A DNA stretch of 64,000 nucleotides. Origin: Euglena gracilis (taxonomy: Eukaryota). Made by a program: the position numbers and the translations under genes. The stretch lies in NCBI GenBank assembly GCA_039621445.1, contig CP154954.1, positions 46,293,847-46,357,846 of the forward strand, given 5' to 3'. Below the pieces are notes generated by a model. It had not been told where the DNA came from and did not search any database. It saw only the letters and a program-made list of their open reading frames with translations. Numbering within the stretch: the stretch's first letter is position 1; each line of letters opens with the position of its first letter. Positions 842 to 62,939 of this stretch are shown here, one piece after another.

Positions 842-3800
842 TCAGTGCGGGTCGGCCGACGGTCTTGCGGTGGAGGCGTCTGTCGAGGTCTGAGCGTACG
901 CCAGGGCAGAGGTGGCGAGTGCCTGCAGCCACGCAACGCGCCGCTTGGGGTCCAGGAGGTAGAACTCGGCCTGCTGCACGACCAGGGTGCCGTGGCTCTC
1001 ATGGCGGCGGACCATTGCCCAAGGCATGAAGACCCACCTGGGGGGCAGGGTCGGAATAGCGGGTTTCCTCAAATGTGGCAGAAAGCTAAAAAACTGGCCA
1101 TGGGGTTCAAAGCATCCAAAGATCAAAGCTCCCCAACTCTGAAAGGGGAAGGCCTGAAGTGAATTCCGAATTGAATAGTCCGGGGTCTGTGAGAAAACTG
1201 ACTGAACCGAAGGCTCCACCAGAAACCATCCACAAGCCACAATCGAGTCATCCCCAAATGCGTTGCCAATCCTGAAGCAACCGTCTGTGCGGAACGCCCT
1301 CACGAGGGGATCGTCTGCGGCGGTGAACCGGGTCAGCGGCCACAGCGCGACGCAGGCACTGCGGTGACCCAAGGGGAGGGAACGTAACGTGGACCCTCAA
1401 AAAAATACACAACACAAAAAAAAAGCAAAAACAGCAGCAAAAAAACGCAAAAAAAACGCAAAAAAAACCCACAAGTCTCATGCAAAATCCTTCAAAGCTC
1501 CCCGGGATGCACACTTTTCCACTGGGGAGGACTGGAAATTTTTTCATTTTGCTCAAAAATGAGCATTTTGTTGCAAAAATGCAAAAAAAACGACGAAAAA
1601 TTGACATAATCTTTGGTCTCGGGGGAAATCGGGGCCAAAACGAGGAAATTCTCACAGTCCAAAAAAGCATTCGCAAAAATAAAAATATCGCTGGGGGAAA
1701 AAGGCACAAAAAAAGGAGCAAAAACAAAATTTCGCCAAAATCGAAAATACACAAAAAAAACGCGTTTGCGTTTCTCCCCCTCCTGCGTGACCCTCCTCCC
1801 CCCGGTTCCGACGACTCCTCGGCCTTGGCACACCCCCCCCCCTCCCCGGCTCCTCTGACCCCTCTATGGCCTTGGCACCAACTCCCCCCCCCAACCCCGG
1901 CGTCGGGCTGGCTGCGTGCCGGAAGTCGGGCGAGGGGACCTCGCCGGCCCCTCGAGCGGCCTTGACCTCCAGCCGGCGGAGGGCGAAGAGGCAGTCCACC
2001 TCCTCGCCCAGCACCGGCACCTCCGCGGCGAGGGGCTCCGCCTGCTCCCTGGCAGACCCCACTGCAACCTCTGTGGCCCCTCTCCAACAGAGGGCCTTCT
2101 GGAGACAGAGTTGGCCGCAATGAACAGATGGGCATCAAACCCAGCAGAGAGCACACCTCCTTAGAAGCAACAAACGTCGTTGTGGATGCCCTTTGGAGAC
2201 AACTTTGTGGAAATGTCAAGAACTTCAACAAGAATGCCAAAAATAAATAAACTGCCCACAATGGCTTGCACTCAAGTCAGACAATGGTGCAAATAGATCA
2301 TGCGCATTGGTGTGTGATGGTGTCTTTGGAGTTGCGTGTCGCCTTGTGTGTGCGTGCATCGCAGAAATCTCCACAGAGCCCACGAAACATGAATGCACAC
2401 AATAGTACAATCAATACATACAAACACACAAAAATGCACAAAAATGCACAAAAATGCACACACTTACGTGCTGTAAACACCACACACTTCAGGAGAGTCT
2501 GTTCAGGGTGCAGAATCCCAAGCCACATGGAGCCCACCGGCAGGCCGTAGTTCTGCACCACACCATTGCCCGTCAGATCGGGGGAATTGAGTGGCCAGCC
2601 AGCAAACCAGTCAACCGTCAAAAAGGCCAGAGGCGGGGGGGGGGGGCAATGGTGTGGTTTGGGTCAGTAGCCGGGCGTAAATGTTGAGCTGCAGGGAGTA
2701 CTGCAGAGCGGAGCAGTGGGGAGAGGGCCCGGCCGGGACCCCCAACCCATGCCCTCATACATGACGGATCGCTTCCGCTGCCCGGGGGACCAGGGGTGGG
2801 GGAAATAGCTACAAGAACATGCATGGCCCTGGGCTCGGCAGGTGTCGCAGCGGCCACAGACCGCCCGCCGAGTCGGCCGAAAGACCGCCTGTGCTGGGGG
2901 TTCCTCAGCACCAGAAATGTGGTGGTCATGTGAAGGCACTGCATCCGACCGAAACCCACTGAGCACCAACAGAAACCAACGATTTGTGAGAGCCACAAAG
3001 GGAGGCGTTGGACAGCCGTGACCGGTGCCTGAAACTTTGGGATGGGGAAGAGGATCGTGAACCCCGCAAGAAATTATATACATATATACGTATACATATA
3101 TACATATATTGTATATGTGGGGCGATTCTACTTTTTGGGTCCGTTGCTGGAAATCCCAAATTGGGAGGGTCTAAATTGGGGGGGGGTCGCCAAAGACACC
3201 ACGCTGGCCAGCCAGCCAAAAGTCAGGATTCCTAGACAAACGCAAGGCAGTCCTTGCACGGGGGAAAGCTTGACAGAGGCGTCGAAGTCCTTGGCTCGCT
3301 TCCAGTCAAAGATGGAATCGGCTGGGGCCAAACAACATAATATAAAAAAAAACGACGGAACCTGCTTGCTGGAAAGTGTCGGCCGGCAAAAGACCCGGGC
3401 CGAGCGTGGTACACGCCGCTGTCGTCGACCCCGACGAAGTCCACGGAGCCCGCCAGGTCCAGCTCCTCATCGAACACGACCATCTCCGTGCGGTACGGCC
3501 GGATGCCGCGGGGCACCAGCACCGCGTCGAACAGCTGCCGGAACAGTGCCACCTCCCGCAGCTCTTTGGGGGGCAGGCGGCGCCCCAGTTGAGCTCCGAG
3601 CAGACATCCCTCCGGGGCTTTTCAAAAAAACGTGATCGGAACCCAAAATCCCATGCGTGATTTTATGTGGCTTTATGTGACTTTACGTGACTTTACGTGA
3701 TTTTACGTGATTTTAAGAAAAGCGAAGAAAATTGTACTACTTTGATGCCAATATGTCACTTTCAGAGCATATGCCATCATCTCCAACTTGGAAAGCAGAA

Positions 3801-5279
3801 AGAAGCCACAATGCATAGACATCAGAGTGGTGCTGGCAGTTGAGTGCAAGTGCGGATCAGCACAGACACGTGTGACGTGTGGAACGCAGAGTGTTGGGGC
3901 GATTATGGTTGCTAGCTGTACTCTTTTCTCTGTAATCGATGGGGACGTTGCATACACCACACCACATTGCATTGCCACGAACTTCCGTAACTGGAAAAAA
4001 AAACTGGAAATTGAGCAGCTCGGCTGTTCGGCGTCGCCTTTGAACCGCGATTCCATTTTCGCTGCACTTTTCCTTTACTTGAGTTATTCCTTGGTTTAGC
4101 ATCACCACTATCAGACCCAGACATTCAATCTGAAAAGGAGAAAAAAGAAGACAACCCACCAAATAAAGAAAGAAGGAGTAGGACGAGGAGAAGGAGCAAT
4201 GATTTTGGTGTTGAGAAACACCGATGTTGCTGAGCTCTGGAAATCCAACAAACCTGAGGTGGGCGGAAAGGAACACCTGCGAGATTTACGTGATTTTGGG
4301 GGGAAAAATTCTGACAAAATTTATATACGTGATTTTACGTGATTTTACATGATTTACGTGATTTTTGAAAAAATGGATTTCCATGATCATACGTGCTTTT
4401 ACGTGGTTTTACGTGCCACATTTTTATGAAAAACCCTGCATCCCTCAGGCAGGCGTGGGAACGGGGATGAATTGCCTGCAAGGTCTTGATTCTCAGCAAT
4501 GCATCATCGCACTTCTCGCATTCCTCAGTTAAAGCGCAACCTTGAGATTCACGAAAGGGTCAAAATATTTTTCAGGCCAGGAACAGGGCGAACCAAGGAC
4601 CACCCTGAGGGGTCAGCTCAGAGGCCGGAAAATTTGGGCGGGTTGGAAAAAGGCTGCTGGCTGACCCCCCCATGGGGTCCCAGGGGTGGAACTAGGCCTG
4701 ACCAAGGTGGAACTGGATGCTAAAAAAAAAAAATCGAAACTGCAAAAATGTCGATGCCTGACGGCCCTTGGACGGCCCTTGGAAAATAGAACCTCAAAAA
4801 ACCTTAAAAAAGCCTTTCCAAAAAAATTAAATACTAAATACTTAAATATTAAATATTAAATATTAAATATTAAATAAATATTAAATATTTAATATTAAAT
4901 ACTTCAAAAATCGAAATTTTTGCCTAAAAATGTCTGCATTGAGGTTAGGCTGGAAAACACATATTATCAATGCCACAGGTGAAATTGGTGGGGTGGGGTG
5001 TCTGTGGCGCAAGCAGGCCTTTGGAACCTTCCCTGGCATTTCTGACCCCAGCAACAGTCGGCCCTGACTCCAGCGCTGCCTGGCGCGGGGGGCAGGCCGT
5101 TCAGCAGCCGCTCCAGGTGGTGGTGCATCCACGTCCCCTTGGTGCGGGCGTCCAGCGAGTTGGCGTCCCACATCGCCTTGATCTGCTCCTTGGTGTAGCC
5201 CCCGGCGGGCCCCCATCGTCAGGGTGCACTGAGGTGGCCACGCTGCAGCGATGCCACCCATATGCTTACCAGTGGCAGA

Positions 5280-5340
<61 letters not shown>

Positions 5341-8300
5341 TGGCCCTTCTGGGGGGGCCCGGGCACGACCCGTCTCGGCATCGGTGTACTTCTCCGGGGG
5401 CCACTGCCGGCGTCGCATCATCCGGTTGATGATATCATCCGCGTTGAAGGGCGGGAAGCACTGGTGGACCAGCTGCGTGCAGGAGCACGACGCCTGCGTC
5501 GCGGCGGGGCTGGCGTGGGGATGAGACATTTGCCTGCCTTGGAGCATCTCACACAAACGTCAATTGGCCCCTCGACGACTCCATAGCTTCACGGGGCCAC
5601 GGTCAAGTCCCCGTGAACCAAGCAAAATGAATATGAATACTCCCCTTAAATAATAACCCCCCGGATTTATAATTGGATTCTCGAAGTCGAGGTCCAGGGA
5701 GTTCATTATTTGGGATAGTTTATTATTTGGGAAAAAAACTTTTAAAGTCAAAAGTCGACCCAAAAGTGCCTCACCAAGGTCACCTTTTTTTGGCACTTTA
5801 GGGCTTTTTTGAACAGCCGATGTTCTTTTTTTTGACATTCTTTCTGAACCAATTTCGTCCAATTCTCAGATTTTGGCAATGTTTCTGCTATTTTATCTCT
5901 TGTTTTCCTTGCCTTCAGGACTGTCGGGGGATTATGGGCAGCCGAAGTCGGTCATCGGGGGGTTAATTATTTGGGGGGCGTATTTGGGGGAATTGAAATG
6001 TCTGTACAATCGGTTTTAACTGCTGCAAGCTGCATCGGTTTTGAGTGCTGCAAGTTGCATCTGAATGCAGCTGGCAAGCAACCTCCGACCAAAAAATGAA
6101 CAGTGAAATGCCCGCACCCCGCCAACTGGCAAAGCAGATGGGGACAACCACAAGAATTGCCTTTCTCAAATGCCCACCTCAGCTCAGTACTAGTGGGTCC
6201 TTCCCCAGGGGATCCCACTAGTTTGATGGGGGTTTGGTTGCTGTTGTATGGCGCACGAAGGTGGGGAGGGGTGGACCCCCCACCAGGCTGTTTTTTTACC
6301 AACCCCAGGGGAGGGGGGGGTCGGAGTGCCTTTGAGTGCCTGCCCAGGCAGGCACTACCCCCCGGGGGGGGGGGGTCGGATTTCGGCCTGTACCCAGGCA
6401 CATTGAAAATAGGCCATTTTGGCTCCCTGGCGTCTTCGGCGACAGGGTCTGTCCTAGGGCACTTTTGGCTGTGTGCCCTACCCCCCGGGGGGGTCGGATC
6501 GGGAGTGCCTTGGAGTGCCCGCCCAGGCAGGCACCCCCCCCCCCGGGGTGGGGTCGGCACCCGACTGAAAAACAGCCTGCCCCCCACCCGGGAGGTGGGG
6601 GGGGGGGTTCACCCCCACCCACCACAGCGCCTGCTCAAAAAAAACTTTGACCAAAAATCTGCCTCCGGAAATACGGGGAAGTCCTGGTGGGGGGGTCGGC
6701 CCCCAGGGGGGGAGGGGTGGGTGGTCGACCCCCTCCCACCACCCATAGGGTTGCGGGGATTCCTGAACAGCCCCGCGCCGCACCCAACTCTTGGCTGTCT
6801 CGAAATCACCCCAATTCCCCGCTTTTTAGGCGGTTTTACAGGAGCAAAGTGGGATAATGATAGGGAGATTTTGGCAGAAATCTAGGCCTACAGTCCGCAC
6901 ATTAGGCCTGATTTTAGGCCATTTTTTTTAGATTCCGCCGAACGTCTAAAGGAAAAACTAACCCAAAACCCCATTCCCAAACCCTAACTCGAATCCCTCG
7001 TACCAGTGGGATGGGGGCCCACTGGTATGACGGGATGACGCCCCACATCGTACAAATGGTACGGCTGAGTGATTCTGGCCTCTCTTCCCTCCAACCCCGC
7101 AATCCCTCCGGGAAGTTTGGGTCGTTTCTGCTGTGTGTGTGGAGGAGAGTTTCCTACATCCATTAACCAAATCTTTTGAAGATATTCCTTGCCCTCCCCA
7201 TAAAAATCCCACCCAGGATTGCAACCAACTTTAAAATAAAATACCTCAAAAATATATTTCCTCTCCGAAAAAATTTTTTACCGGACGTCTTCTTATGCTT
7301 GTTGCAACTCCATATCCTCATCGGATGCAATGTTCAAGGGAATGAATGGTTTTCACAAGGAACTCAGCACCTTTCATAACGAGCCTGGAAATAAAATGAT
7401 GTGGGGACAACAACATTGGGCATTGGACAACAACGCCGTTGGGAAACCGAAGGGAGCGAGCCCACTGGCTGTAGCACACACAGCCCGGCATGTCCCCAGA
7501 GGCAGACCGGTAGTGATACGTGTGCGTTGGGGCATCGGGCCAGGGCAGGGCACCAGAGAGGACGTGCAAATCCAACGATCGCATGGAGAGCAGCGTGGCA
7601 GGACAGGCAAGCGCACTGGGAACTGCCAGAACGGCGGCCTCCAAATTGAGATCATGATTGGTAATCCAAAACAGAAACGGAACACTTCCCATCAAAACAC
7701 CGGGCCACACAGTATTGAGCGGGGGATGGGGAATGCGGCGGGGCCAAACCCGGATTGAAAACGACGAGGTCGTCGCGAGGATGCGGATGGGCGATCTTCA
7801 GTGACATTTCCTCCGGCCTGAGCGCTGTGGGCTCAAGTTCATCGCCTCCAGGCTTGCCCTGAGCCTCCCTGTTACCTGGTTACCTTGGGACCTTCAACGT
7901 CCAAAGTTTTTGAGAGCGCGTCCGTTGTAATCCTCTGCAATGGCATTACAAAAAAAAAGAAAAGAAAAAAGCACTGAAGCTGCAGCTCGTTTTCCAAGTA
8001 TCCCTCCAGCCTGCCCCAGGGGGTTGTTCATGTTGTGGAGCATCCGATCATTTCACTCCAGCGCATGTTTCGGTTGACAAAAACAAACAAACAAACAAGA
8101 ACCCTTCTGTGGATCAGCAGAGCACTTTTTTGGGGGTGGCTTCGGTGCGCAGTTGATTGTTCATTGTGTGCTTGGCCCAAACAGGCCATTGGACAGACTG
8201 TGGCCACTTGCATATGTTTTTTTGAAAAGGCTGCTAAACGTTTGCAAAGCTTGTGGCGTGATGACTGCACACTTCTTTCTTTTGAAGAGAAAGTCCCAAG

Positions 8301-10976
8301 CAGGAGTTTGTGTGCCATGGGTTGTTTGACCAAAGGAAACCCACGCACAGGGACGCGCACGCACAGAGACCCCGACCCACAGACACGGACGCCACAGGGC
8401 AAGGCTGGGTCCACCACTGCAGCCTGCAGCCCCAACCACTTCCGGGCACCAGCCTTCATCGCCAGGGCGGCGGATGAGCCCACGGCGATGCCTGCAGGCT
8501 GTGTTGGCTTCTTAACCATTGGGCTGGGAGGGTGGTGTTGGCGGGGGTGGTGCTTTCAAAGCCAATCAATAACCTTCTCGCCATGAGTCACTTATCCCGC
8601 GTGGGAACACACATCATTCCTGCGAACGGTGAATACCTTGGCCCTTCTTCGGAGCAAAAAAAAATGTAGCGCTTTGAGCGAAGATAAATTAAGGGAAACT
8701 GCGCATATTTTTAGCGGGAGGGGGAAAAAGGACTGCAAAAAACAACAACAGCCGGTGAAAAACAAAATTACAGATACATACATGTATATACACATGTGTA
8801 ATATGAAGTGTGTATTGCATTATTTTATTGTATTATTTTATTGTATAGATACACTGCATGGCGCGATTCTAGAGGGGGAAAACAGCCTGGCTTGCAGAGG
8901 CCCAGAGGGACCACCATTGCCCACCCTGCAGGGGAGAGGCACGGTGCCCCAAGGGCCCAAAATGCGCGTGCCAAGGATCAGGAGGGGTGGCATTATGCAG
9001 AAGCAGTAAACACCACCGCCCCCCCCCACCCCGAGAACCACAGACAGTGAAGGCAGAGAAAAGAAGGAAAATCACAAGGAAGTGCGGGAAGATTACGGAA
9101 ATGGATCCGATGTACCGAAGCAGATCCCCTTGCTCAAGGCACACCGTGTCGTTGACACACACACAGGCACACACACACACACACACACACAGGCACACAC
9201 ACACACACACACACCATGTCAACGACACGTTCTCCGAACATTGGCATGCCTTGGACAAGGGAGGGGGAGGTACAAAAACCCTAAACTGCTAAAACGGGAG
9301 CCAGTTGAAAAATACTATTTGGGTCAACTTTGGACTTTGGAATAAAAATGACCCCCCCTTTGAAGACCTATTTGGCCACCCGAATGTTAAACTGGGGAGG
9401 TTTGAACCTTTGGTGGGGTTCAGGCTGTGTATTTACCAACCCTGGGGGGAGGGGGGGTCTGGAGTGCCCTTGAGTGCCTGCTCAGGCAGGCACTACCCCC
9501 TCAGGGGGGTCGGATTTCAGCCTGTGCCCAGGAACTTTCCTCAGAAAATAGGCCATTTTCCTTGAAAATAGGCCTTTTTTGAGCCTTCCGGCGCCTTCGG
9601 CGCCAAAGTGCCTGCTAGGCACTTTTGGCCAAGTGCCCCCCCCCCGGGGGTCGGATTTGAAGTGCCTTGGCGTGCCCAGGCAGGCACCCCCCCGGGGTGG
9701 GGCAGGGTTTGATATAAGGACAGGTTTGGGGGGTGGTCCGGACCCCCCCTGCGGGCCAGGAGGGGGGGGGGGGGGGGGGGACACCCCCCCACCTAAACCA
9801 TGTACGCCCTCCTTATATCAAACCCTGGGGTGGGGTTGGCACAACTAAAATACAGCCTGGTGGGGTTGAAGGGGTACACCCAGCGAAGGGGCAGGATGGG
9901 TGGGGCCAACTGGCTGGATGCCAGGTGGGCAAAAGCAAAATATGGACACAAATCAGAGGATTGTTAAAGGATTCCTGGGGGGATGGGGAAAAATGTGCTG
10001 GCTTCGGACCAGGAAAATCATCCAAATCCAGCTGGGTTGTTCTGTTGGGTATATTCAACCAAAACTTTGAGGTCCTCGAAAGTCCTCGCTGCAAATAGGT
10101 TGACTTCAACGCCAGGTTCGGATCCCCTCCACCCACCGGCCAATACCGGACCCTCAGCCCACCGGGTGCCCCGCCTTCCCGCCCATGTCAGCGCGGGGGG
10201 GGGGGGGGACACGCCTGCCGGGGCCCCTCCGCCAGCTGCGCCTTCGCCCGGCCCGCCCGCCGCGGCGTCGCCCGCCGGGGGGCACGCGGCAGGGGCCGGG
10301 GCCCCGGCGGCCGCGCAGCCCCGGCGGCGGGACCGCCCCGCCGCCGGCCACGCGACCGCGGCCGCGGAGCGCGCACGCACGAAGAGGGAGGCGGGGGAGG
10401 CGGCGGCCCGCCACGCCGCCACGGCCGCCAGCGCCGCCACGCCCGCCGCGACGCCCCACAGCGGGGCCCGCCGGGAGGGGGGCTGGCGAGGCAGCCGCCG
10501 CCAGAGAGAGCTCGGGGGGGGGGCATGGGGACCGTCAGGGCAGTACGGGAAGGCCTGGGGGGGGGGGGTCGACACTTTCACAGGTTTATTAATAACAAAT
10601 CCACCCGGCGCCAGAGGCGCCAGGAAATTTTTTTGGGGTCGAAAGCTGGTGCTCCCAGAAATACGAGAGGTGGTGGGGGGTGGTTGACCCCCCCCACCCA
10701 CCACCCTGGCTGTTTGGCCGATTCCCGTACTGCCGTGGGGGGGGGGGGGGCATGGGGACCGTTGCGGGGAGGGTTGCCCTGTCCTGCACCTCAAAAAGCG
10801 TCCGCGACCCAAAGGAATGTCAAAATGCCTTCACATGGTGAGACAACATGCGGATTCCAATCAACCCGTGGTCAACCCCCAAGCCAGCTGGTGCTCAGCA
10901 CTGGGTGCCCCTGCCGGTGGGGCGCGGTGGAGAGCGGCGGTGAGAGAGCGGCAGGGGGGTCGTCCGGCCTGGACAT
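842..10976 (-). CDS. Multi-exon PD-(D/E)XK superfamily nuclease gene with probable N-terminal plastid-targeting presequence
   Basis: Exon pieces in order: HPHPRDDLVVF (~7756-7807), PTHTYHY (~7500-7535), SCTQLVHQCFPPFNADDII..WPPEKY (5365-~5500), GYTKEQIKAMW..GTWMHHHLE (5087-5200), RTEMVVFDEELDLAGSVD (3406-3567), IFDWKR (from 3313), PLRHLP (to 2835), YSLQLNIY (2660-2717), NYG..LHP (2505-2553), EVDCLF (from 2047). Catalytic E..D..DWK and QLxxY pattern. N-terminal exons (~10915-10976, ~10210-10495, ~8893-8926, ~8380-8489) and C-terminal exons (~1285-1357, 842-~991) are less certain. Confidence 0.75.
2048..2504 (-). other. Nonconventional intron
   Basis: CCT|GAA-CAGACTC...GGGTCTG-CCAGG|GAG; joins LHP|EQA. 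Confidence 0.78.
2554..2659 (-). other. Nonconventional intron, 15-bp perfect stem
   Basis: ACCACACCATTGCCC / GGGCAATGGTGTGGT; joins ARLLT-Q-NYG. Confidence 0.75.
3314..3405 (-). other. Nonconventional intron
   Basis: CAC|GCT-CGGC...GCCG-ATTCC|ATC; joins VYH|IFDWK. Confidence 0.78.
3406..3567 (-). CDS. Nuclease core exon (KELREVALF...RTEMVVFDEELDLAGSVDF...YH)
   Basis: PD-(D/E)XK core motifs; flanked by stem-ended introns; joins in frame to IFDWKR. Confidence 0.82.
3613..4438. mobile_element. Non-autonomous hAT-type element with zinc-finger relic
   Basis: TIR C(G/A)GGG(C/T)TTTTCA, TSD catccctc x2, subterminal TTTTACGTGA arrays, minus-strand WCGVCNVPID..KST...H. Confidence 0.78.
5087..5200 (-). 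CDS. Nuclease exon (GYTKEQIKAMW...GTWMHHHLERLLNGLPP)
   Basis: GTxxHxxLE motif of RecB-like nucleases. Confidence 0.8.
5201..5364 (-). other. Nonconventional intron containing a (CA)n tract
   Basis: CGT|GCC-CGGGCCCCC...GGGGGCCCG-CCGGG|GGC, 9-bp stem. Confidence 0.8.
5284..5336. repeat. (CA)n microsatellite
   Basis: Directly visible. Confidence 0.95.
5640..5980. mobile_element. Tc1/mariner-type MITE
   Basis: TA flanks, imperfect TIR C.CCCC..AAATAAT.AACCCCCC. Confidence 0.55.
6284..6579. mobile_element. hAT-type MITE
   Basis: TIR CAGGCTGTTTTT, 8-bp TSD ccccccac. Confidence 0.8.
8490..8892 (-). other. Nonconventional intron with MITE-like ends
   Basis: GCA|AGC-CAGGCTGT...ACAGCCTG-CAGGC|ATC; joins WSLWASA|IAVGSSAALAM. 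Confidence 0.68.
9421..9859. mobile_element. hAT-type MITE (same family as 6284-6579) with nested MITE
   Basis: TIR CAGGCTGT, TSD gtggggtt. Confidence 0.8.
9703..9827. mobile_element. Nested hAT-type MITE
   Basis: TIR CAGGGTTTGATATAAGGA, TSD gggtgggg. Confidence 0.82.
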
Positions 10977-10984
10977 CGGGCGGG

Positions 10985-11000
10985 CTGTGGGGGGGAGGAA
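10985..11000 (-). promoter_or_regulatory. Putative spliced-leader trans-splice acceptor
   Basis: ttcctcccccccacAG 8 nt before ATG 10976. Confidence 0.45.
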
Positions 11001-12490
11001 GCAACGCTCCGTGGAGGGTTCAAGCTTCAACGCCGTGGATGCAGAACACAACGCACTCTGCCCTCTGCCCATTCTCTTTCACATGCAAAGGGAGGGGTTC
11101 ATTCTGGTTCTTCTCAGCCTGCACCGCTTATTTTTTTGATTATTTGGATTTTGCAATGGCCTGGAAACGACCTTTCAAGGAAGCAAAACCCAGTCTGTCA
11201 TGCCAAAACAACCCTGCACAAGGTTCCACATGGTACCACGATGTGGGGTGCGTCGTTGCAAATTATATCCTGGGGGGAAATCAACTTTGTCCATAAGCGC
11301 GAACGAAATCGCCTATTGGAGAATGTGGGGCTGTCATCTTTGATGGGAACGTTGCTGCTGCAAAGTTTCTTCTGCCAAAGCACCAACAATGCTTGTTCCT
11401 CAACAGGCGGGATATGAAACAACAGCAGCCCTGAAATCGCAGAAAGGGAACTCAATGCTCATAGGGGTGTAGCTTTGATACCCCCCCCCGGTGGGGGTCC
11501 AGCTCAGAGACTGGAAGATTTGGGTTGGTTGGAAAAAGGCTGTTGGCTGGACCCCCCATGAGGTCCCTTAGCTGGAAGTGGATCCAATTGGGGGGGGGGG
11601 GTGGTGCCAAAACCCAAAACTGCAAAAATGCCCAAAAATTCACATGTAATTGTAATCCAAAAGGTCTTGGAATCCCTTCAGCATACAGCAACAAAGGTGA
11701 GCCCAAAGATATCACTCAGAGAGCTTGAGCCAAGACGACGACCCGGCAATGATTTCACACTGCCAGAACTTATACTTTCCCATCAACGTGGCATCATTGT
11801 GGTTAGGCAGGAGGTTGAAAAGATGGGGGGGGAGGAGGTGGCATCGAGGAGCAGGCGCCGATCTGTCACGAGGTAACAGGACTGGCACAGCGTGGGGCAC
11901 GTAGAAGGGGGGGGACAACAGGAGTGGGGGCCACAGCAGGCAAGGGAGGCCCCTCGGTGTGGCACCTTGCGACCCTTTCCGCGCGGTTTGGCCGCCTGGG
12001 CTGAGGCCCCCTCGCGGCAGTCTACAACGACCTTTCTGTCGGCGGTGCTGCGGGCGACCGATGGCGCGGCCCACCGATGGACCAACAGGCGGTGGGTCAC
12101 GCGATGAATGATGACGTCAGTTCGGGGGTCAGGGCGGGGGGGGGGGGGTCAGGAGCCTCGGAGGATGCATGGATAAGATAGAAACGGCGCTGATAAGGGC
12201 CCGGGAGGGCCTTGCATGTTGAACCGAGCCGACCCAGATGGCCAGCACCCAACCATCCTGCTGGACCGCGTTGGACCAGGATTTCAGCAAGCACCTGTCA
12301 TGCCATGAGCGACGTTACTGCGGATCACAGCACTGGGCAAATAGTACATGGGAGCTGCCTCGACGAAAGCCTGTCAACATGTATCACACACACAGCAAAA
12401 AAAACCTGAAAGCAAGCAGAGAGGGGGGAGGGAGGGAGGGGGGAGGGCCCTTCCTCAACGCCATCCCGTCAGAGGGGGGCGAGGGGCCGG

Positions 12491-12638
12491 CTACGTCAGC
12501 TTGAAGTCCCGGAGCTCGGAGAGGGTGTCCGCGGCCTGCTGCAGGCACGACAGCATCTTCTTGGCCGCCTGGCGCTTCTTGGCCACCTCCTCGCTCTCCG
12601 CCAGCAGCTCTTCGAAGAGGGCCTCCCGGTAGAACGTC
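12491..12638 (-). CDS. Dynamin-related last exon ([22 protein letters not shown]...FKLT*)
   Basis: GED C-terminus, TAG stop at 12491-12493. Confidence 0.88.
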
Positions 12639-15600: not shown

Positions 15601-18600
15601 TGAGGCATGTGCCAGATGGATCAGAACAAAAACAACAGCCTCCCTGCGCAAAAACAATGCATTTTAGGGGTTCACCACAAAGGCACACTGGCGGCTGGGG
15701 CAGCGGCTGGAACTGCATCTGGTCAAACACCGAGCCCCCTCCGTAGAAGTGGGGGTGGTTGGTGTTGATGTACGCCAGCTCGATCTTGATGATGTTCGAG
15801 ATGAACTCCCGCAGCGGGTTCATGTACTCGCGCCGCCAGGGCTGAATGCGCCGGGCCAAGAACCCAATGATTCCCACCAAGATTGGAGCAAACCCGGCTC
15901 AAACAGTGGTTTCATTGTTGGTGGCCCCCCCCCGGGATAACAACCATAACCAAAAACCTAATAACCATAACCATAATAAACCATAAGTTATAATAACCAT
16001 AAAATAACCATAACCAAAGTGCAGTATCATACCCCCCAAAGAGAAGAGTCTCCTTGACTAAAAATCGGACCTGTGCCCAATAAAAGCCCCCACCTGGAAA
16101 TAGAAACCTGGCAGGGCTTCTATTCAGGCAGGGTTGGTTATCCCCCCGGGAGATTGACCCAGGTCAAATTGGGCCCAACAGTCAGGGGTCACTTTCCCCA
16201 TGCTTGGGCACACAAGGCATTCCTGCGGGAAAAAAAATCCTGGTGGTGCTTTCTTCAACGTAGAAAAAAAATTGGGGGTTCAGGTTGGGCCCAACAGCCC
16301 AGGGGGGTCAATAAGCAGCGGGGGTCAGTATCCCGGGGGGATTGACCCCGGAAAACCATGGGAAGAAAAGCCAATAACGAATGTGGGGGCAACCCCCCCT
16401 GTTTTATTCAGACAATACAGCAAAATGGTCGCGTGGTCTTCAATGAAAAAAAAAGTGAAACCCGAAGCAAAAAAAAACGTAAAAATTCCTCAATAATTCT
16501 GCACACTGTGGAGAATGTGTAAAGAGGGAATGCCCAAACTTTGGGCGATAACAAAAAAACTGCGGCATTCAGTGCTGTCCGCAACAGCTTCAAAACCTGT
16601 TCGTTGACTCTCGCCCTCAAAGTGGGGTACCTGCACAATAGTAAAAGAAAAAGACAGTTATTTTGTCCCATTCACTGACAAAAATTCCAATTCAGCTTCA
16701 TGGATGGACCAATAACATTCCAACAGAGTCAGATGTCATAAAGGGGAAAGGAGATCAGGATCGGGATCACAAAGTCCAGATTAGGACTCCTCCATTCTCA
16801 TTACCCACTTTGAGGGGCGAGGGTATTGCCCTGTGGGGTGCTTCAGATTCCCTCTGAAGACCTGCTTTTCAAAGGGTTCAGGGATGACCACCCACAATCT
16901 CACCCTCTGAATTGGAATACCCAAATACCTTTCCGCTGACTGGCCTGAAGTTTTGCATGCCCAAATAACCTTGCAGAGTGGAAATGCCCCCCTTCGAAAA
17001 ATGATGCACCTTCTTAGGAATCAGGAGGCAAATAAATGCAAAAAAAACATACAAAATGCTTCAATGATTTTCGTTGTCCAATTACAAAAATACATGTTTG
17101 TCAGTGGACACCCATAAACGCCCATACACACCCATAAACACCCATAAAAAGCCTTGAGTGCAAGTTACGATGCCTGAGCGGGTGTCGTAACATGTGTTTA
17201 TGTGTTTATGGGCATTATTGTCGATTGTGGGTGTATAAAAACTTGCATTTGATCACAAATTGCTTTTAGGAAATGTGAGAAATCACTCGATCAATGGTTT
17301 CGGGTACTGCCCATATAGCTTTGCGGGGGTCGGGGCCAAAAAGGTCGGTCCACTAACTTTGCAGGGGGCAAATTATTTGTGGGGGGGTGCTGAGCTGGAG
17401 GGAATCAGCCACTGGTGAATGTTTCCATGCACCAATGGCAAAAGCAAGGAGATTAAAAACACAACGCTGCGACACCTCGGGCTGCGGTTTTCTGATTTTG
17501 GATTGAAACTTTACGATTATATTCAATCCACAGAAAAGAAAATGTGTGGAGCCCTTGCATTGGGCAGCAACACAACCTTTGGACTATATGTGTTGCTAAA
17601 GAGTGCAAAGGCTTTCTTGAAGGCCACAGGGGGTCCAGCTGGCCAGCTGGAAGAGGTGCTGGCTTTTTGAGGTCTTGGCTGACATCAACAGTCTCGACGA
17701 AATGATATCCCCCAAATACACTTCGGGATGCTGCCAAAGACACCCACCCACCAGAATCAAAGAATCAACGGCTCAAGGCGGGAAAAAAAAGTGTGCCAAT
17801 GTTCCGAGCGGGAGGGGGTTCCACCCTCTGACACCACCGGCCACCTGACGAGCCCAGGCAGCAGCGACGTTCCAGGGAGTGAGTGGGTTGGAGGGAGGTT
17901 TCGAAACAGATGTCGGGGGCAGGGGCGTGTACCTCGCCAGCTCCTTCTCGGAGGACTCGCAGATTTTCAGCAGCTCGTCAAATACGTGATCGCAGCACTT
18001 CAGGCACGGTTCTTCCAATCGGGAAACTGAAAGAAGGGCATTCAAAATTCATTTTCCTGCCATGGGTTCGGGGCTGTGGTTATGCTAACCCGGCCACAGA
18101 TACACTTGGTGGCTCCTGGGGGGGGGGGGCCAAACCCACCAACTCAAAAACCCATCCGGGGTTTTCCCATACAGGGGTCAAGGAAATGGATGATGCTGCC
18201 CCAAAAAAAAAAAAGAAAAAAAAAAAAAAAAAACACAAAAAAAAAAAATGTGATTGGGGTCTTTCTGATTCCAACCAAATGATGCGGGAAGGTGATGCTT
18301 TGTCTTGAGATGCTTTGGTTTCGCAGACGATGCGGAAGATGATACACATAATAAACACAATAAATATAAAACAAAACAAAAACAAAATAACAGTAAAACA
18401 TAAAACAAATGGTCGCTCACCACCATTTATGTGCTTGCCAGTTGTCAGAATTGTCCATCGGACAAGACAACCGAAATATTCCAAAGGAAAATCGATTGTG
18501 AGATGGGTCTTTCTGAGTCCGAGGCAGGGGGGGAACACAACATGGACCCTCAAAAAAACGCGACGCAAAAAAAAAAAAAAAAGGGGAGGAGGAGAATTTT

Positions 18601-21600: not shown

Positions 21601-24600
21601 TAGTTTTTTTGTGCTAACCACCCCTGGTTGTTTTCCTTGGAGGATGCACCAAAACCAAAACCAAAAAAGATGCATCAAAAGATGCACCACTTTTCACGCA
21701 TTTTCATTGAAAAGAGGGGGCAAAGTTATTTGGATTGATCTTCTTCAGCTTTCCCCCGAAAAGTTATTTGGCCAGGGGATTTCTTAAGCCGGACCCCTCC
21801 CCCTGGGGGTCCAGGCAGCCGACACCTTTTTCCAGCCAGCACCGGGCTGCGACCCCCCAGGTCGAGCGGTTAAAAGTTTTCGCAGCCGGTCTCTACCAAA
21901 AAATTCCGGCACGAAGTGCCAAAATTCTTGAAAAAGTGGTCAAAATTGCCAAAAAAATGGCCATTTTTGGTGCGTTTTTTTGGGGGGGTTCACGTCAAAA
22001 AATTAGCTGAAAAATGCATGATCCTGACCAGGCTTTTGCTTAAGGGATTGCAGTACCCCTCCCGGGGGGGGGGGGCTGGACTGCAGCTAGTCCAAATTTG
22101 GCTCGTGGAATTTCTAGCAGACCCCCCGGGGGGGGGTCTGCTAGCAGGGCTAGCTAGTGGAATTTTTTTTCCAATGACCGGCGCGAAGTGCTGAAAATTT
22201 TTTTGGGACCCCCGAAAATGGCTAAAAATGCCCGTTTTTGGCCTTTTTTGGGAATTTTTGGAACAAAATCGGCCAAAAACCTATTAAAAACCACAATTTT
22301 CCTCCGCGCACAGCGCCGGAGGAATTTTTTTTTTCCAGTTCGGGGGACCCCCGGCCCCCCCCCCCCCCCCGGGGTCTAGCTAGTCCCCTTTTTCCAGTGT
22401 CTTGCCGATTGGCTAGCCAGTACCCCCCTCCCCCAGGGGGTCCTTAAGCAAAAGCCTGATCCTGACCCCTTGCAAAGTTATTTGGGCAGTACCGGCCAGG
22501 GGGGTTGCTATTTTTGGGGGGTCCATTTTGTGGGGGGGTCTTATTTGGGGGGTTTATGATTTATTGGAGGGGAGGGCGCGGGTGGCTTTGGTTGCGACAA
22601 AATGGAGGAGAAAAAAAAATGGGTGAAAGCATCCAAAAATGGTATGAACCCCCCGAAATAACTTTAGAGCACTGCGTGCCCAAAAAAAGGGAATATCTCA
22701 AGGACCCTGCAGGGGAGGGGTCCAACCGGCTGGCTGGAAAAAGGCGCTGACTGGACCCCCCGGGGGGTCTAGGGAGGGAGGTGGTTCGACCAAAAAAAAA
22801 AAATAGGCAAAACAGCCCAAATCCTGCTGGGATCAAAAGGATCGGTCCACTAACTTTCCAGGGGACAAATTGTTTTGGGGGGATTAGGAATATTTGTGGT
22901 GTTTCCTTTTTTCAGTATTTAATATAAACATAAAATTTTGGGCAAGAAAAGCTTGAGAAGCAAGAGATAAAATTTTTTTTCAGATTGAACCAACTTTAAA
23001 AAAAATATCCACAATCAATGGTTGTTTCTATATGGAGGCTTTTCATCATCACTGGCGGCCTTCTTTTGGAAGTAACCCCCCAAAAAGTGCGCAGTGCCCT
23101 AATTATGCGCAGTGCCCTAACCCCCCCCCCTCAAAAATAAGACCCGGGTCTTATTTTTGGGTCCTTTGCTGGAGACCTCCAGGGGGGGGGGTCTTATTTT
23201 TGGATTTTTTCTTGACCGACCCGGGCCCGAAAAAAAGGTCATTTTTCAGGTTCCCAAAAGCATCAAAAATTTTCCTTCGGTGCTGCGCGCCATGTGAAAA
23301 TTGGTGTGAGTTGACATTTAGCATTTTTTTTGCACCCCAAAGATCAGAATTTTTTGAATTTTCTTCATTTTTGTGTGTGAAATTGAGGTTTTTGGTATTT
23401 TTTCAGGGTAAATTTTCACTATCTCCGCCGTCAGGGGGGGTCTTATTTGGGGGGGTCTTATTTTTGGATTTTTGCTCAATTGGCCCAGGGGAGTCTTATT
23501 TTGGGGGGGGGGTCTTATTTTTTGGGGGTTTAATAAATGCGCACCCCCCAAGGGTCCGAAATTACCTCTCTAAAAAGTGCGCACCCCCCCCCAAAGGAGA
23601 AATCACTGTTACGTCTCAGGTTGGAAAGCACACATTATTCTCAGAACTGTCCCACCCAAACCAAATACTTCCATCCTCGAAGCCCAAATTTGACACATAA
23701 TCACTTGACTCATTGCTTTACATCACAAGAAGGTGAGAAACTAAGAAAGAGTGGTGGAAAATTACACATTTTATGCTTTGTCTTTACAAGTGCGCCTTGG
23801 GGTCCGAAACAACGTCCTTAAAATGCGCGCACCCGTACACTTATTAGGGGGTAGGTTAGGAAAGCATATGCCCCCTCTATGCCGCCAGTTGCCCCTTAAG
23901 AAGAAAATGTGTTGGAAGGTGTGCAGTGCTTTGTTTCTGGAAGTTATTAGCACAATCCACAGAGAAAAAAAATAAGCAAAATAGGATGAAAGAAACGGTT
24001 GGAAAAATTGCATCTATTTAAAATTGGTTGAATTAAATTGAAGCCATCTTTAATTGCATGAAAATAAAAATGCACTAATGCATTGTTCTCCTTTTTAACT
24101 GTCTTTTGCTGTGGCTCAATCCATCTGTATTTTACGAGGTGAGCATGGCATCTTCCAAAATATAAAAAGACAGATGTGAGAAAAAATACCAGCGTAACAG
24201 AATACCATCATGGCAAGTGGAATCTGGCACATGGCATAAACACTTTCCAACAGAAATTGTGTTTTGCTTGATTTTTTTTGTTTCAAGAATTTCAAGTGAT
24301 TGTCACTTGCATAAAATATTTAAACTCAAAGCTTGACCTCAAAACAAATTTGCCAGCTCCTCCAGGCTGTTTTTTTACAATTTCAGGACACTTTGCACAT
24401 GTATTTTCTTTGGAATGTGCTGACTCATTCATTCGAGTCAATCTTTTTTTTGTTTTTTCGAAGATCGCGGGGTGTCCATTTGGGGGGGGGGGATGCAGCT
24501 TTTGTGTGGGGGGGGATTGTCATACTGGGGATCACCCCTGACAGCTTGAGGTCCAATTTCGACTGCCAAAAGAACAGCAAAAAAATGCTGGAAACCGCTG

Positions 24601-27600
24601 TGCACAAAATGGTTGTGCACAAGATGGTTTTTTGATGTTTTTTCGAATTTCATTCAATTTCTCCACATTTTTTTGCTGTGTTTGAGGGAAAAAAACAGCA
24701 CAGCCATTTTGGGGACATTTTTTTTCACGGTGAAATATCCTGCTTTTTTGGCCTATTTTTGGACCCTCCTGCCAGAAGACTCTTTTATCGGCCAAAACTT
24801 TCAGCAAAAAAAAATCGCCCCTTGGGATTTTCAGCAAAGACCCAAGGGTATTGGTCTTGGGAAGGGTGTTTGGGGGTATTCATAAATTGGAGGTTTAAAA
24901 AAAAACACAGTCAGATCTTCTTGATTGGGCCTTGATTGGGCCAGGCAAAGAAAAGGTTCAGCACCTCCGGCTGACATAATTGTCTGGTCATCTCCAAGCT
25001 GGCGCAGAACCGTGTTTGTCTGGGCGATGGCTGCAGTGTCCGTCATACCATTGATTGCGGCAGGCGGTTGCCCATCACTTTCAAAAACCAATCAGCAACT
25101 TGTCGAAAAAGAGACATCCACTTCCAGCCCCGGGGGGGGGGGGGGCACTCTGGCAACTTTGGCTGAATCGGCTCAATGGCTCAAAATCAATGGACTTTGG
25201 CCAAAATTTCAAAAAAAAATGACTTCTCCAGCCAATGGGCATTATGGATCATTCTTTGGACAACCTCAAAAAATCTCTGAGCCAAAACCTTTCTGGGTGT
25301 GGAGCCAAAAAGCAGTCAGCCACTCTGAAAAAAACCATGTTCGGTTTGGTGGACCTTCATTCAATCGCTCGGTCTGGGTCATGGTGTGGCTTAGTGACCC
25401 CCTGGGGGGGGGTCCAGCTCAAAGGCCAGAAAACTTCGGTTGGCTGGAAAAAGGCTGCTGGCTGAGCACCCCCCCCCCAAAGAGTGGGAACTGGACCCGA
25501 CCCGGAGTTGAACTGGGTGCCAAAAAAAAAATAAAAAATGGCAAAAATGTCCAAAAACGTCCAAATGTGAAGAAAAAAAATGATTCTTTGGCCCAGAATT
25601 TGTCCTGCTGCCAAAATCCGACCCATTTTTTTGCTCATTTTTGGCCCGTTTTTGCACCCCCAAAAGCCAAATCCATTATCATCCAGCTTCCCTTTGGGAG
25701 GGTGTAGAATAGTCAAAAACTCGTCGATGGGGGGGAGGGGGTCTGGGGAGAGATGAGGTCACTTTGGCTTAAGCGACGCCCTGATCTGGGTCAACCTTGC
25801 GTTACTAATTCCTAACCAAATGACAGCCATCTGTCAAAAACAAAATACAAAAGGAGTAAAAAAAATAATGTATTTCTTTTGCAATATCTAATATCTACTG
25901 ACAACGTGAACTTGATCAAACAAATTGAACCACTCCACCATTGTAGGGGGGACCATTGAGGCAAAAAAGTTGATATTTTGTGATGAAAATGTTCCTTCCT
26001 TGGCGGCCTTATTCCATTTCTGACAATTACAAGCAAATGCACCAGCTCATGGAAAGAAATATTCTCTCACTGTGGATCATCCAATCACATCTGGTGGTTG
26101 CTGTGCTCGACAGCCCCGTTCGTTCTATCGCTTTCCCACAAATGCTTCAGTGCTTCAGATGAAGGAAAAAAATGGACTGGTCCAAAGGGAGGGGCACGGC
26201 ACTGTGGGATTCCAGGAGGCCACTGGCTCAGGTCATGAATCTTCCCCTTCAGCTCCGGCAGCGTCTCCCGGATGTGCTGCAGCAGGATGGCGTTGAGCAG
26301 CTTCCCCAAATAGGGGGTCCCCATCCGGTTGGCGATGCTGCCGTGGCACGCGAAGAGCAACCTCCATGCGCCGTGTGCATGGGAAACCGTGATTTGGCCC
26401 CAAAACTGGAAACCGATTGGGGGTTCCCATTGTGTTCACCGGGATAGCTATTTTGATGTGCCGGCTGGATTAGTGCCTACGGGTGTGAAAAACATGCGGA
26501 TGTCAAAAAACTATCCAGATATCGATAGTTTTGGAGGGGTGGAAGAGGGCCCCAATTGGCAGTACAAGCTGTTCCCCTTGTGTAGACTTTGTCCTTAAAC
26601 CCCAAATAAAATTACATTGCGGGTTCTGTTCCCCCCCAAGGCAAAACCTAATTGAAAGGAAAGGGGGTTAAACCCGGGGAGAGGGGCTGTAGGGTGCCTG
26701 CACTCCAGTCCCAGGGCCTGAACGTGGCATTTCAAGGGAAAGCCTGAGGCGGCCAGGACACAAAACCGACCCCAGGGGAATGGACAACAACACTGCCCAT
26801 CCCGGGGGCCCAGTTCAGAAACTGTAAAAATTTTGGCTGGCTGGAAAAAGGCTACCAGCTGACTCATGGGACTGGAACTGGGCAATTGGCACTGCAAAAA
26901 AAAGCCCAAAAACAGCCAATTGTGCAAAAAGTCGATTTTTGACCCCAACTTTATCCCTAGCCAGCCCAATTCCGACCAATTTTTGCCCATTTTTGCACCC
27001 CTGAAAACCAGAAATCCGTTACCATCCTGCCGCTCTTCAGGGGGCTGCAAAATAAATAAAACTCGTCGATGCGGGGTCCAGGACTGGAAAAATGCTGCTG
27101 GCTGGAAACAAGCTGCTGGCTGGCGGACCCCCCCAGGAGGTTCATTTTTAGCGCCTTGTTCGGGCGGCTGCAAAATAATTAACTTGCCGAGGGGGGTCCT
27201 CTGGTCCTCCCCTGAGGGAATGGAGTGCCCTCTGGCTTGAGCGACGACTGCAAATAGCTGTTGACAGGGTGCAATCTTCTTTCGAAAGAAGCCTGCGTAG
27301 ACCTGCCATGACAACCAACAAAATGGTGCTTCTTTCTTCTTCTTCGTCTTCTTCTTCTTCTTCTTCTCTGTATTTCTTCTTTCTTGAATAAATGCCAAAT
27401 TGGTAGATTGGGGGAAACAGAAACGTTGCAGCATTGCCCCCCCCCCTGGGTTGGCTCTCGGTTGTTGAATGAATAAGAAGATGGGCGAAAATCATTTGGA
27501 GAGATCTTTTGTGTGCTTCTCACCTGCAATATTGCTTGGGCATGCAATCACCAGGGAAATGCGCAGATTTCGCAAATGCGCATTTTCAATTGGAGATCTT

Positions 27601-62926: not shown

Positions 62927-62939
62927 AAGCGACTTCTTT

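What the first reader, a model, noticed from the sequence alone, without database searches (positions are those of the whole stretch)
2048..26228. Nonconventional intron geometry (3 nt + CAG...CTG + 5 nt) equals an hAT MITE plus one 8-bp TSD: MITEs as intron generators
Seen: nine stem-ended introns (2048-2504, 2554-2659, 2718-2834, 3314-3405, 5201-5364, 8490-8892, 12639-13272, 15832-16580, 25029-26228) keep the frame when cut 3 nt before and 5 nt after an inverted repeat, usually starting CAG/CGG. Seven elements in the window (3613, 6284, 9421, 9703, 13850, 22029, 51432) have CAG(G)/CGG...CTG/TTG termini and perfect 8-bp TSDs. Established: the +4..+6 / -8..-6 pairing is the euglenid nonconventional-intron consensus, and 8-bp TSDs with short TIRs are hAT hallmarks. 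Inference: since 3+5=8, splicing a fresh MITE insertion by this rule removes the element plus exactly one TSD copy. That restores the mRNA seamlessly in either orientation, so the splicing code may mirror hAT insertion geometry. Caveat: the introns here retain only 1-4 of 8 flank matches, so they would be old.
Basis: partly seen in the sequence, partly recalled or inferred. Interest (0 to 1): 0.85.

Follow-up and report, generated by a model that had tools for sequence, protein, structure and literature searches.

The report
Euglenid intron rule matches MITE footprint
Small mobile DNA elements in this euglenid genome end in the same letters, and duplicate the same number of bases (8), that the organism's unusual intron-removal rule trims away, so one landing in a gene could be cut out of the message without a scar; that these introns come from such elements was already proposed, but the exact fit was not found in print.

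Summary
All 7 listed elements are real MITEs. Each has a perfect 8-bp target-site duplication, terminal inverted repeats matching at 10-12 of 12 positions, and CAG/CGG...CTG/TTG ends. Twenty simulated windows gave no such element. One element has a paralogous empty site.

For 8 of the 9 listed introns, gap-free alignment to homologous proteins fixes the exact length and leaves no GT/GC-AG option. The ninth (8490-8892) is unverified and may be a MITE relic in non-coding DNA.

The arithmetic is exact. Applying the published euglenid rule (3 nt + CDG...CH'G + 5 nt, purine at exon start; PNAS 2025) to each MITE restores the empty site in 14 of 14 element-orientations. Six of the 14 meet the whole published signature.

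Independent support is in print: the one recently gained nonconventional intron (E. agilis gapC intron 4) has 8-nt junction repeats.

Limits:
- The nine introns show no excess of flank matches (25 of 72, p = 0.30).
- No intron in the window is a MITE copy.
- No transposase was found, so "hAT" rests on structure alone.
- A MITE origin for these introns was proposed in 2014 and 2024; I did not find the 3+5 = 8 match or the parent elements in print.

Verdict: real, interpretation partly supported, moderately novel.

The parts
3613..4438 (.). MITE, 826 bp, ends CGGGGC...GCCCTG, 8-bp duplication CATCCCTC (3605-3612 and 4439-4446). It lies inside the roughly 1.5-kb intron of gene A, about 50 nt from the 3' splice site.
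   Evidence: Homology of the downstream exon starts near residue 17-19 of the ORF.
6284..6579 (.). MITE, 296 bp, ends CAGGCTGT...ACAGCCTG, duplication CCCCCCAC. Paralogue of 9421.
9421..9859 (.). MITE of the same family as 6284, 439 bp including the nested 9703 element, duplication GTGGGGTT.
9703..9827 (.). Nested MITE, 125 bp, 18-bp perfect terminal stem CAGGGTTTGATATAAGGA, duplication GGGTGGGG. Paralogous empty site in 6284. With 3-nt and 5-nt flanks the RNA fold leaves exactly 3 and 5 unpaired bases.
13850..14090 (.). MITE, 241 bp, ends CAGGCTTC...GAAGCCTG, duplication GCCCCTGC. It sits in the dynamin intron upstream of exon 13654-13824, which I read by eye as conventional; this intron was not run through the junction test.
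   Evidence: for the element. The intron type is my own reading of the sequence.
22029..22458 (.). MITE, 430 bp, ends CAGGCTTTTGCTTA and its complement, duplication ATCCTGAC. It lies between mapped dynamin exons. It meets the full published splicing signature in both orientations.
51432..52170 (.). MITE-like element, 739 bp, ends CAGGGTTGACG...CGTCAACCTTG, duplication CCTGGGTA. The 3' motif is TTG, so it fails the published CH'G requirement.
2048..2504 (-). Nonconventional intron of gene A, gaa|CAGACTCT...GGGGTCTG|ccagg, 8 consecutive pairs.
2554..2659 (-). Nonconventional intron of gene A with a 13-bp stem that starts CAC...GTG, outside the published CDG/CH'G motif.
2718..2834 (-). Nonconventional intron of gene A. 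CAG faces CTC, so the first pair is mismatched, followed by 6 pairs.
3314..3405 (-). Nonconventional intron of gene A, CGG...CCG. Product ...GVYH|IFDWK... matches P0005 without a gap.
5201..5364 (-). Nonconventional intron of gene A, CGGGCCCCC...GGGGGCCCG, 9-bp stem.
8490..8892 (-). Claimed intron, unverified. Its ends CAGGCTGTTTT...ACAGCCTG equal the termini of the 6284/9421 MITE family. Flanks match at 4 of 8. It may be an old MITE copy in non-coding DNA.
12639..13272 (-). Nonconventional intron of the dynamin gene, CGG...CCG. Product ...NELVA|TFY... equals P0001 without a gap.
15832..16580 (-). Nonconventional intron of the dynamin gene, CAG...CTG. Product ...KLLR|EYMNP... It can slide -2 to +1.
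25029..26228 (-). Nonconventional intron of the dynamin gene, CAG...CTG, 1200 nt. Product ...KIHDL|IAQTN...

Best explanation
The window is euglenid nuclear DNA. It holds two separate things that share one geometry.

(1) Young non-autonomous DNA transposons (MITEs) whose ends read 5'-CAGG...CCTG-3' and which duplicate exactly 8 bp on insertion.

(2) Nonconventional introns, removed by the euglenid structure-guided splicing system. That system pairs the intron ends and cuts 3 nt before the CAG arm and 5 nt after the CTG arm.

Because 3 + 5 = 8, a MITE of this kind that lands in an exon would present the recognised helix in its pre-mRNA. It would be excised together with 3 nt of one duplication copy and 5 nt of the other, leaving the original message intact in either orientation, provided the sixth base of the duplication on the sense strand is a purine. 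The most likely reading is that elements of this type (hAT-like by structure) are a main source of nonconventional introns, and that older introns have lost the duplication and internal similarity while selection kept the terminal helix.

Shown here: the structure and mobility marks of the MITEs, the intron geometry, and the arithmetic.
Taken from print: the cutting rule and its sufficiency.
Inferred: that these MITEs are spliced when exonic, and that existing introns descend from them.
For: - 7 of 7 elements have perfect 8-bp duplications and CAG/CGG ends; 0 such cases in 20 of 20 simulations.
- Paralogous empty site for 9703.
- Excision by the 3/5 rule restores the empty site in 14 of 14 element-orientations. 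Six of the 14, in 5 of 7 elements, meet the whole published signature N3-CDG...CH'G-N5|R with a paired stem.
- The RNA fold of 9700-9832 leaves exactly 3 and 5 unpaired nt.
- 8 of 9 introns have homologue-fixed lengths, no GT/GC-AG option, and stems in the 3/5 register.
- In 9 of 9 introns both the first intron base and the first downstream exon base are purines. Both correspond to duplication position 6 in the model.
- In print: spacer lengths 3 and 5 shown by knock-in, artificial 50-bp introns spliced, CGG variants functional (PMC12501133, sections 8, 10, 11).
- In print: 84.4% of E. agilis introns have junction direct repeats (same paper, passages).
- In print: a strain-specific, recently gained nonconventional intron has 8-nt junction repeats (PMC4770533, section 7).
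- In print: the same pyrimidine|purine context at both junctions (PMC11282704, passage), as expected if both are copies of one duplication.
- The hAT MITE Mar has inverted repeats CAG(G/A)GGTAGGC and 8-bp duplications (PMC3517528, passages).
Against: - The nine introns show no duplication remnant above chance: 25 of 72 matches, 22.2 expected from mismatched pairs, permutation p = 0.30.
- No intron shares internal sequence with any MITE in the window.
- The one terminal match, 8490-8892 to the CAGGCTGT family, stops after 11 and 8 nt and belongs to an unverified intron.
- No MITE in the window sits in a verified exon. 3613 lies inside an intron. 13850 and 22029 lie between mapped dynamin exons, and 6284 is probably intronic.
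- Among 169 CAG/CGG...CTG/CCG inverted-repeat pairs, flank matches are bimodal: 6 at 8 of 8 and the rest near chance. No intermediate-age class is visible.
- Two of 9 introns (2554, 2718) do not fit the published motif.
- No transposase was found.
- No RNA data could be laid.
Confidence: 0.6

Rival explanations
1. Coincidence. The MITEs are ordinary 8-bp-duplication transposons with common CAG ends. The nonconventional introns arose by other routes, such as conversion of conventional introns or other insertions. The equality 3 + 5 = 8 has no causal meaning.
For: No duplication signal in the nine introns. No intron-MITE homology in the window. CAG-type ends are usual for hAT-like elements (PMC3517528). 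A conventional GT-AG intron (16631-17932) also carries a 7-nt junction repeat, so long junction repeats are not specific to this class.
Against: Three independent features coincide: terminal triplets, a paired stem directly at the ends, and a spacer sum equal to the duplication length. The single documented young intron has exactly 8-nt repeats. 84.4% of introns are slidable, against roughly 45-50% that I estimate by chance (paper figure; the chance figure is my own estimate).
Confidence: 0.2
2. Double-strand-break repair. New nonconventional introns are filler DNA captured during break repair, and the 8-nt junction repeats are repair microhomology or fill-in rather than transposase duplications. 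This is the 2016 authors' own suggestion.
For: Proposed for gapC intron 4 in PMC4770533 (abstract and section 7).
Against: It does not explain why the inserts end in CAG...CTG inverted repeats. It also does not explain why free-standing elements with those ends and exactly 8-bp duplications exist (7 of 7), including one nested in another element with a paralogous empty site.
Confidence: 0.1
3. Same mechanism, different parent. The elements are mobilised by a superfamily other than hAT that also makes 8-bp duplications, for example Merlin, which is reported in E. gracilis with 8-bp duplications.
For: Two Merlin families with 8-bp duplications are reported in E. gracilis (PMC8101967, passages). 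No hAT transposase was seen here. The duplications fit the Buster target consensus nnnTAnnn in 0 of 7 (consensus) and the Ac consensus nTnnnnAn in 1 of 7 (consensus recalled).
Against: All Merlin families start 5'-GG. All 7 elements here start with C, and moving the boundary inward by 2 nt destroys the direct repeat. A known hAT MITE starts CAGG.
Confidence: 0.2
4. Reverse direction. The free elements derive from introns, for example from excised circular intron RNA copied back into DNA, rather than introns deriving from transposons.
For: Excised nonconventional introns are circular RNAs (stated in PMC11282704, passage).
Against: A constant 8-bp duplication with terminal inverted repeats is the mark of cut-and-paste DNA transposition. 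The elements end exactly at CAG/CTG and lack the 3-nt and 5-nt intron tails that a copied full-length intron would carry.
Confidence: 0.05

Closest known systems
Euglenid nonconventional introns and their splicing code, 5'-N3CDG...CH'GN5-6|R (Nomura et al. 2025, PMC12501133)
   Same: Seven of the 9 window introns fit the signature, and all 9 have a purine at the exon start. The spacers are 3 and 5 nt. CGG variants are present.
   Different: That paper leaves the origin open and cites the MITE idea. The words TSD, duplication and hAT occur 0 times in its main text. The free MITEs described here are not mentioned there.
MITE-origin hypothesis for nonconventional introns (Milanowski et al. 2014, PMC3935182; review, Mob DNA 2024, PMC11282704)
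   Same: The same idea. The review calls CAG/CTG at +4..+6 and -8..-6 inverted repeats, and calls the junction repeats TSD-like.
   Different: In 2014 no transposable element was known in euglenids. Neither text, in the passages I read, gives a duplication length, the 3+5 = 8 equality or a candidate parent family.
E. agilis ACOI 323 gapC intron 4 (Milanowski et al. 2016, PMC4770533)
   Same: A recently gained nonconventional intron with eight-nucleotide direct repeats at its junctions. This is exactly what the model predicts.
   Different: The authors interpreted it as break repair. Its sequence is in a supplementary table that I could not see, so the 5+3 placement of the repeat is unchecked.
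Introners of Micromonas and other algae, and MITE-derived non-canonical introns of Fritillaria borealis (as summarised in PMC11282704)
   Same: DNA transposons with inverted repeats and duplications become introns. Splice sites are partly co-opted from the duplication, so the message is restored.
   Different: Those are removed by the spliceosome using dinucleotide signals, and their duplications are 3-5 nt. Here recognition is a terminal helix, the cut offsets are 3 and 5 nt, and the whole 8-bp duplication is split between them.
hAT MITEs such as Mar of Drosophila willistoni (PMC3517528)
   Same: 8-bp duplications and short inverted repeats starting CAG(G/A)G.
   Different: Mar has a Buster-type target consensus and a related transposase relic. 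Here neither a target consensus nor a transposase is seen.

Membership tests
hAT superfamily (non-autonomous member) | 8-bp target-site duplication | tested here: met
   7 of 7 elements have an exact 8-bp repeat. The length histogram peaks at 8. Feature as stated in PMC3517528.
hAT superfamily (non-autonomous member) | Short terminal inverted repeats (5-27 bp), element under 4 kb | tested here: met
   Taking the longer of each element's two orientations, consecutive terminal pairing is 5-18 bp. Sizes are 125-826 bp.
hAT superfamily (non-autonomous member) | Target consensus nTnnnnAn (Ac family) or nnnTAnnn (Buster family) | tested here: not met
   Of the 7 duplications listed, 1 fits the Ac pattern (ATCCTGAC) and 0 fit the Buster pattern. 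n is small. The Buster consensus comes; the Ac consensus is recalled.
hAT superfamily (non-autonomous member) | A related autonomous copy encoding a hAT transposase with the same inverted repeats | not testable with these tools
   No whole genome is held. 50 of 199 ORFs of at least 110 aa were scanned and gave no transposase domain. A metagenome scan for the 9703 inverted repeat gave 55 single, unpaired hits, which is chance level.
Merlin superfamily | Inverted repeats begin 5'-GG; 8-9-bp duplication | tested here: not met
   The duplication length fits, but all 7 elements begin with C (CAG or CGG) directly after the duplication. Feature from PMC8101967.
Euglenid nonconventional introns | No GT/GC-AG ends; the intron ends pair | tested here: met
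   No GT/GC-AG pair among the homologue-consistent boundaries in 8 of 8 introns. Paired bases among the first 10 of the 3/5 register number 7-10.
Euglenid nonconventional introns | Signature N3-CDG...CH'G-N5-6 followed by a purine | tested here: met
   7 of 9 fit the motif (2554 has CAC/GTG, 2718 has CAG/CTC). 9 of 9 have a purine at the exon start.
Euglenid nonconventional introns | Removal seen in RNA | not testable with these tools
Support is from protein homologues only.
Introner-like elements (introns that are copies of a transposon family) | Many introns with near-identical sequence belonging to a family that also has free copies | tested here: not met
   Within this window, 0 of 9 introns share internal sequence with the 8 elements compared. 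A genome-wide test was not possible.

The most novel reading that the evidence does not exclude
The euglenid nonconventional splicing rule is the RNA-level inverse of integration by one class of DNA transposon. Its two cut offsets (3 and 5 nt from the terminal helix) add up to the 8-bp staggered target cut of CAG...CTG elements. Exonic insertions are therefore erased from the message without a scar, and most of the roughly 70% nonconventional introns of Euglena descend from such elements. A bolder extension, much less likely, is that the unknown splicing enzyme is itself related to the element's nuclease.
Probability: 0.45. Interest if true: 0.8.

Novelty: new variant of a known kind. Interest (0 to 1): 0.62.

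Why it matters
The origin of euglenid nonconventional introns, and the reason for their odd asymmetric 3/5 spacers, are open questions. A 2025 genome study still calls the origin unclear.

Concrete free-standing elements with the right ends and an 8-bp duplication turn the MITE hypothesis into something directly testable. They predict the length and the 5+3 placement of junction repeats in young introns. They explain why both junctions share one sequence context. They also predict which insertions are tolerated, namely those with a purine at duplication position 6.

The published knock-in assay can test a natural MITE at once. If the model holds, Euglena would be a case where a host RNA-processing system neutralises a transposon family exactly, which would help explain how a genome came to have most of its introns non-canonical.

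Tried and rejected
- RNA evidence. One run search listed 4 raw RNA runs of the same species label and 6 small-share possible RNA contig runs; no RNA holder was listed. No junction is confirmed in RNA, and presence/absence of MITEs among DNA runs could not be examined.
- Whole genome: not held.
- Homologues of the gene A exon by word search: none. The full HMMER search then found 12.
- Homologues for the flanks of 8490-8892: none. This is weak evidence, because the queries were short.
- Pfam on six single exons: nothing.
- Metagenome scan for copies of MITE 9703: 55 loci, each with a single unpaired 17-mer hit. This is chance level, so no copies were recovered.
- Internal similarity between 8490-8892 and the MITEs: not above shuffled controls.
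- MITE 3613 as an exonic insertion: rejected. The homologues' match starts about 17-19 residues downstream of the insertion site, and GC3 counted by hand drops upstream.
- MITE 13850 as the 3' arm of a nonconventional intron: rejected in favour of a conventional GT...AG reading of that intron, by eye only.
- The gene A intron near 3562-5086: its type stayed ambiguous (GC-AG or nonconventional).
- Earlier notes of this scan: three look-ups, nothing relevant.
- Supplementary tables were closed (Table S3 of PMC4770533; Datasets and SI figures of PMC12501133). They may hold the gapC intron 4 sequence and the sliding-distance distribution, both of which bear directly on the 8-nt prediction.

Full report
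WHAT THE WINDOW IS. The region holds two minus-strand genes with very GC-rich third codon positions (96-100% in verified exons). One is a dynamin-family gene. Its exons map from 35338 down to 12494 by tblastn with two transcript-like relatives: P0003 (646 aa on a 2108-nt contig) and P0001 (426 aa on a 1334-nt contig). The other, "gene A", runs from about 1900 to at least 5499 and probably to 7822. It has 12 relatives in a full HMMER search, which I mapped with P0005 and P0007. The intron types and the gene content point to a euglenid. That is my inference; I did not try to identify the source.

THE ELEMENTS.
- All seven listed elements are real. Each has an exact 8-bp direct repeat directly outside terminal inverted repeats that match at 10-12 of 12 positions.
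- In an unbiased scan of all inverted-repeat pairs 40-3000 bp apart, the longest exact flank repeat was 7 bp in 5 cases, 8 bp in 10 and 9 bp in 1.
- Twenty first-order Markov simulations averaged 0.35 cases at 8 bp. None of the 20 produced a CAG/CGG-ended case, against 6 in the real window. Element 3613 was lost to my complexity filter in that count.
- Elements 6284 and 9421 are 73% identical over 298 aligned bases but have different flanks, so the element ends are defined independently of the repeat.
- Element 9703 is nested in 9421. Deleting it with one 8-bp copy restores colinearity with 6284, which serves as a paralogous empty site.
- Among 169 CAG/CGG...CTG/CCG pairs with at least 11 of 14 inverted-repeat matches, flank identity is bimodal: 6 at 8 of 8, one each at 6 and 7, and the rest near chance. 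The visible insertions are therefore young.

THE INTRONS.
- On the minus strand all nine follow 3 nt + stem + 5 nt.
- For the eight with homologues, I scored every in-frame donor/acceptor pair within +/-24 nt against the homologue. The consistent intron lengths were 164, 92, 117, 106, 457 (or 463), 1200, 749 and 634 nt.
- No GT/GC-AG pair was consistent for any of the eight.
Intron 2718-2834 did so only against P0007.
- The fraction of all 2401 boundary pairs with as many paired bases as the claimed pair was 0.001-0.06.
- Homology fixes length exactly but position only to a few nt.
- Seven other dynamin introns have a GT-AG option and are probably conventional.
- Intron 8490-8892 is not verified. 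No homologue was found, and the GC3 of its flanks is below that of real exons.

THE LINK.
- The cutting rule is published and was tested by knock-in (PMC12501133, sections 8, 10 and 11 read). The donor spacer must be 3 nt. The acceptor spacer is best at 5 nt. CAG/CTG can be CGG/CCG or CGG/CTG. The first exon base should be a purine. Fully artificial 50-bp inserts that obey these rules are spliced precisely.
- I applied the rule to the seven MITEs in both orientations. Excision restores the empty site in 14 of 14 cases, which follows from 3 + 5 = 8. Six of the 14 meet every published requirement.
- With its 3-nt and 5-nt flanks, element 9703 folds with exactly 3 and 5 unpaired bases.
- In the model both junctions fall between duplication positions 5 and 6. 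That would explain why a review describes the same pyrimidine|purine context at both ends (PMC11282704). It would also explain why, in all nine introns here, both the first intron base and the first downstream exon base are purines.

WHAT PRINT ADDS.
- The MITE origin was proposed in 2014, when no euglenid transposon was known (PMC3935182, passages).
- It was repeated in 2024, with CAG/CTG called inverted repeats and the junction repeats called TSD-like (PMC11282704).
- In 2025 the origin was still called unclear (PMC12501133).
- The strongest outside support is a strain-specific, recently gained nonconventional intron in E. agilis gapC that has eight-nucleotide junction repeats. Its authors ascribed these to break repair (PMC4770533, section 7).
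- 84.4% of E. agilis introns have junction repeats.
- My searches found no paper combining Euglena, hAT, MITE and intron. No paper describing such elements turned up among those holding "Euglena" and "miniature inverted-repeat" from 2019 on, or "Euglena" and "introner". Subscription journals and supplements were not covered.

WHAT SPEAKS AGAINST, OR IS MISSING.
- The nine introns have 25 of 72 flank matches, against 22.2 expected from mismatched pairs (p = 0.30).
- None is homologous to a MITE inside.
- The 11-nt and 8-nt terminal identity of 8490-8892 with the CAGGCTGT family does not extend inward. That sequence may simply be an old MITE.
- No MITE sits in a verified exon.
- "hAT" rests on the duplication length, short inverted repeats and CAGG ends, as in the hAT MITE Mar. 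The target consensus is not met. No transposase was seen in the 50 of 199 ORFs scanned. Merlin elements with 8-bp duplications exist in E. gracilis, but they start GG, unlike these.

VERDICT. It is well supported for eight of the nine introns. The geometric fit is exact and agrees with an experimentally defined code and with one published young intron. Descent of actual introns from these elements, and the hAT label, remain inference. The broad idea is known. The concrete parent-type elements and the 3 + 5 = 8 explanation of the asymmetric spacers appear to be new within what I could search.

Noticed in passing
window 59351-64000 (minus strand): A 1197-aa ORF (59351-62941) is a Ty3/gypsy-type polyprotein with reverse transcriptase, RNase H, integrase and chromodomain hits. 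The ORF just upstream (63252-63998) has a Dam-type N6-adenine methyltransferase domain (E = 7e-12) next to a weak aspartyl-protease hit, which is unusual for an LTR element.
   Followed up: no
window 43475-49180: A satellite of about 4.4 kb (units of 78, 112 and 190 bp, 44.5-48.9 kb) is flanked by arrays of a 51/52-bp unit at 43475-43922 and 48892-49180. By eye the two consensus units look like reverse complements of each other, giving a large foldback-like structure.
   Followed up: no
window 16631-17932 (minus strand): A GT-AG intron of the dynamin gene has a 7-nt direct repeat at its junctions, giving 8 equivalent boundary positions. Long junction repeats are therefore not confined to nonconventional introns.
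   Followed up: partly
window 39100-39223: A perfect 14-nt inverted repeat CGGAACGTTGCTCG and its complement encloses 124 bp inside a Ser-rich open frame on the minus strand, upstream of a PHD-finger-like stretch (by eye). It is a candidate 132-nt nonconventional intron. The frame stays open with or without it.
   Followed up: partly
window 50201-51092: An 892-bp element with a perfect terminal repeat CAAGGTTGGGTTTT has only a 7-bp flank repeat (ATGCTAG). Its ends resemble those of the neighbouring element 51432-52170.
   Followed up: partly
window about 25520-25875, inside intron 25029-26228: The 1200-nt dynamin intron contains a dispersed repeat also present at 4609-4752, 11466-11557 and 26898-27076 at 68-78% identity.
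   Followed up: no
window 19244-19387 (minus strand): This dynamin exon is 100% identical at protein level to P0003, while the other exons are 54-93% identical to it. That suggests a paralogue or a very conserved exon rather than the same gene.
   Followed up: no
window 7474-7822 (minus strand): Weak matches of gene A homologues (HPHPRDD..., HTYHY...) suggest further upstream exons of gene A. That would put MITE 6284 inside one of its introns.
   Followed up: partly
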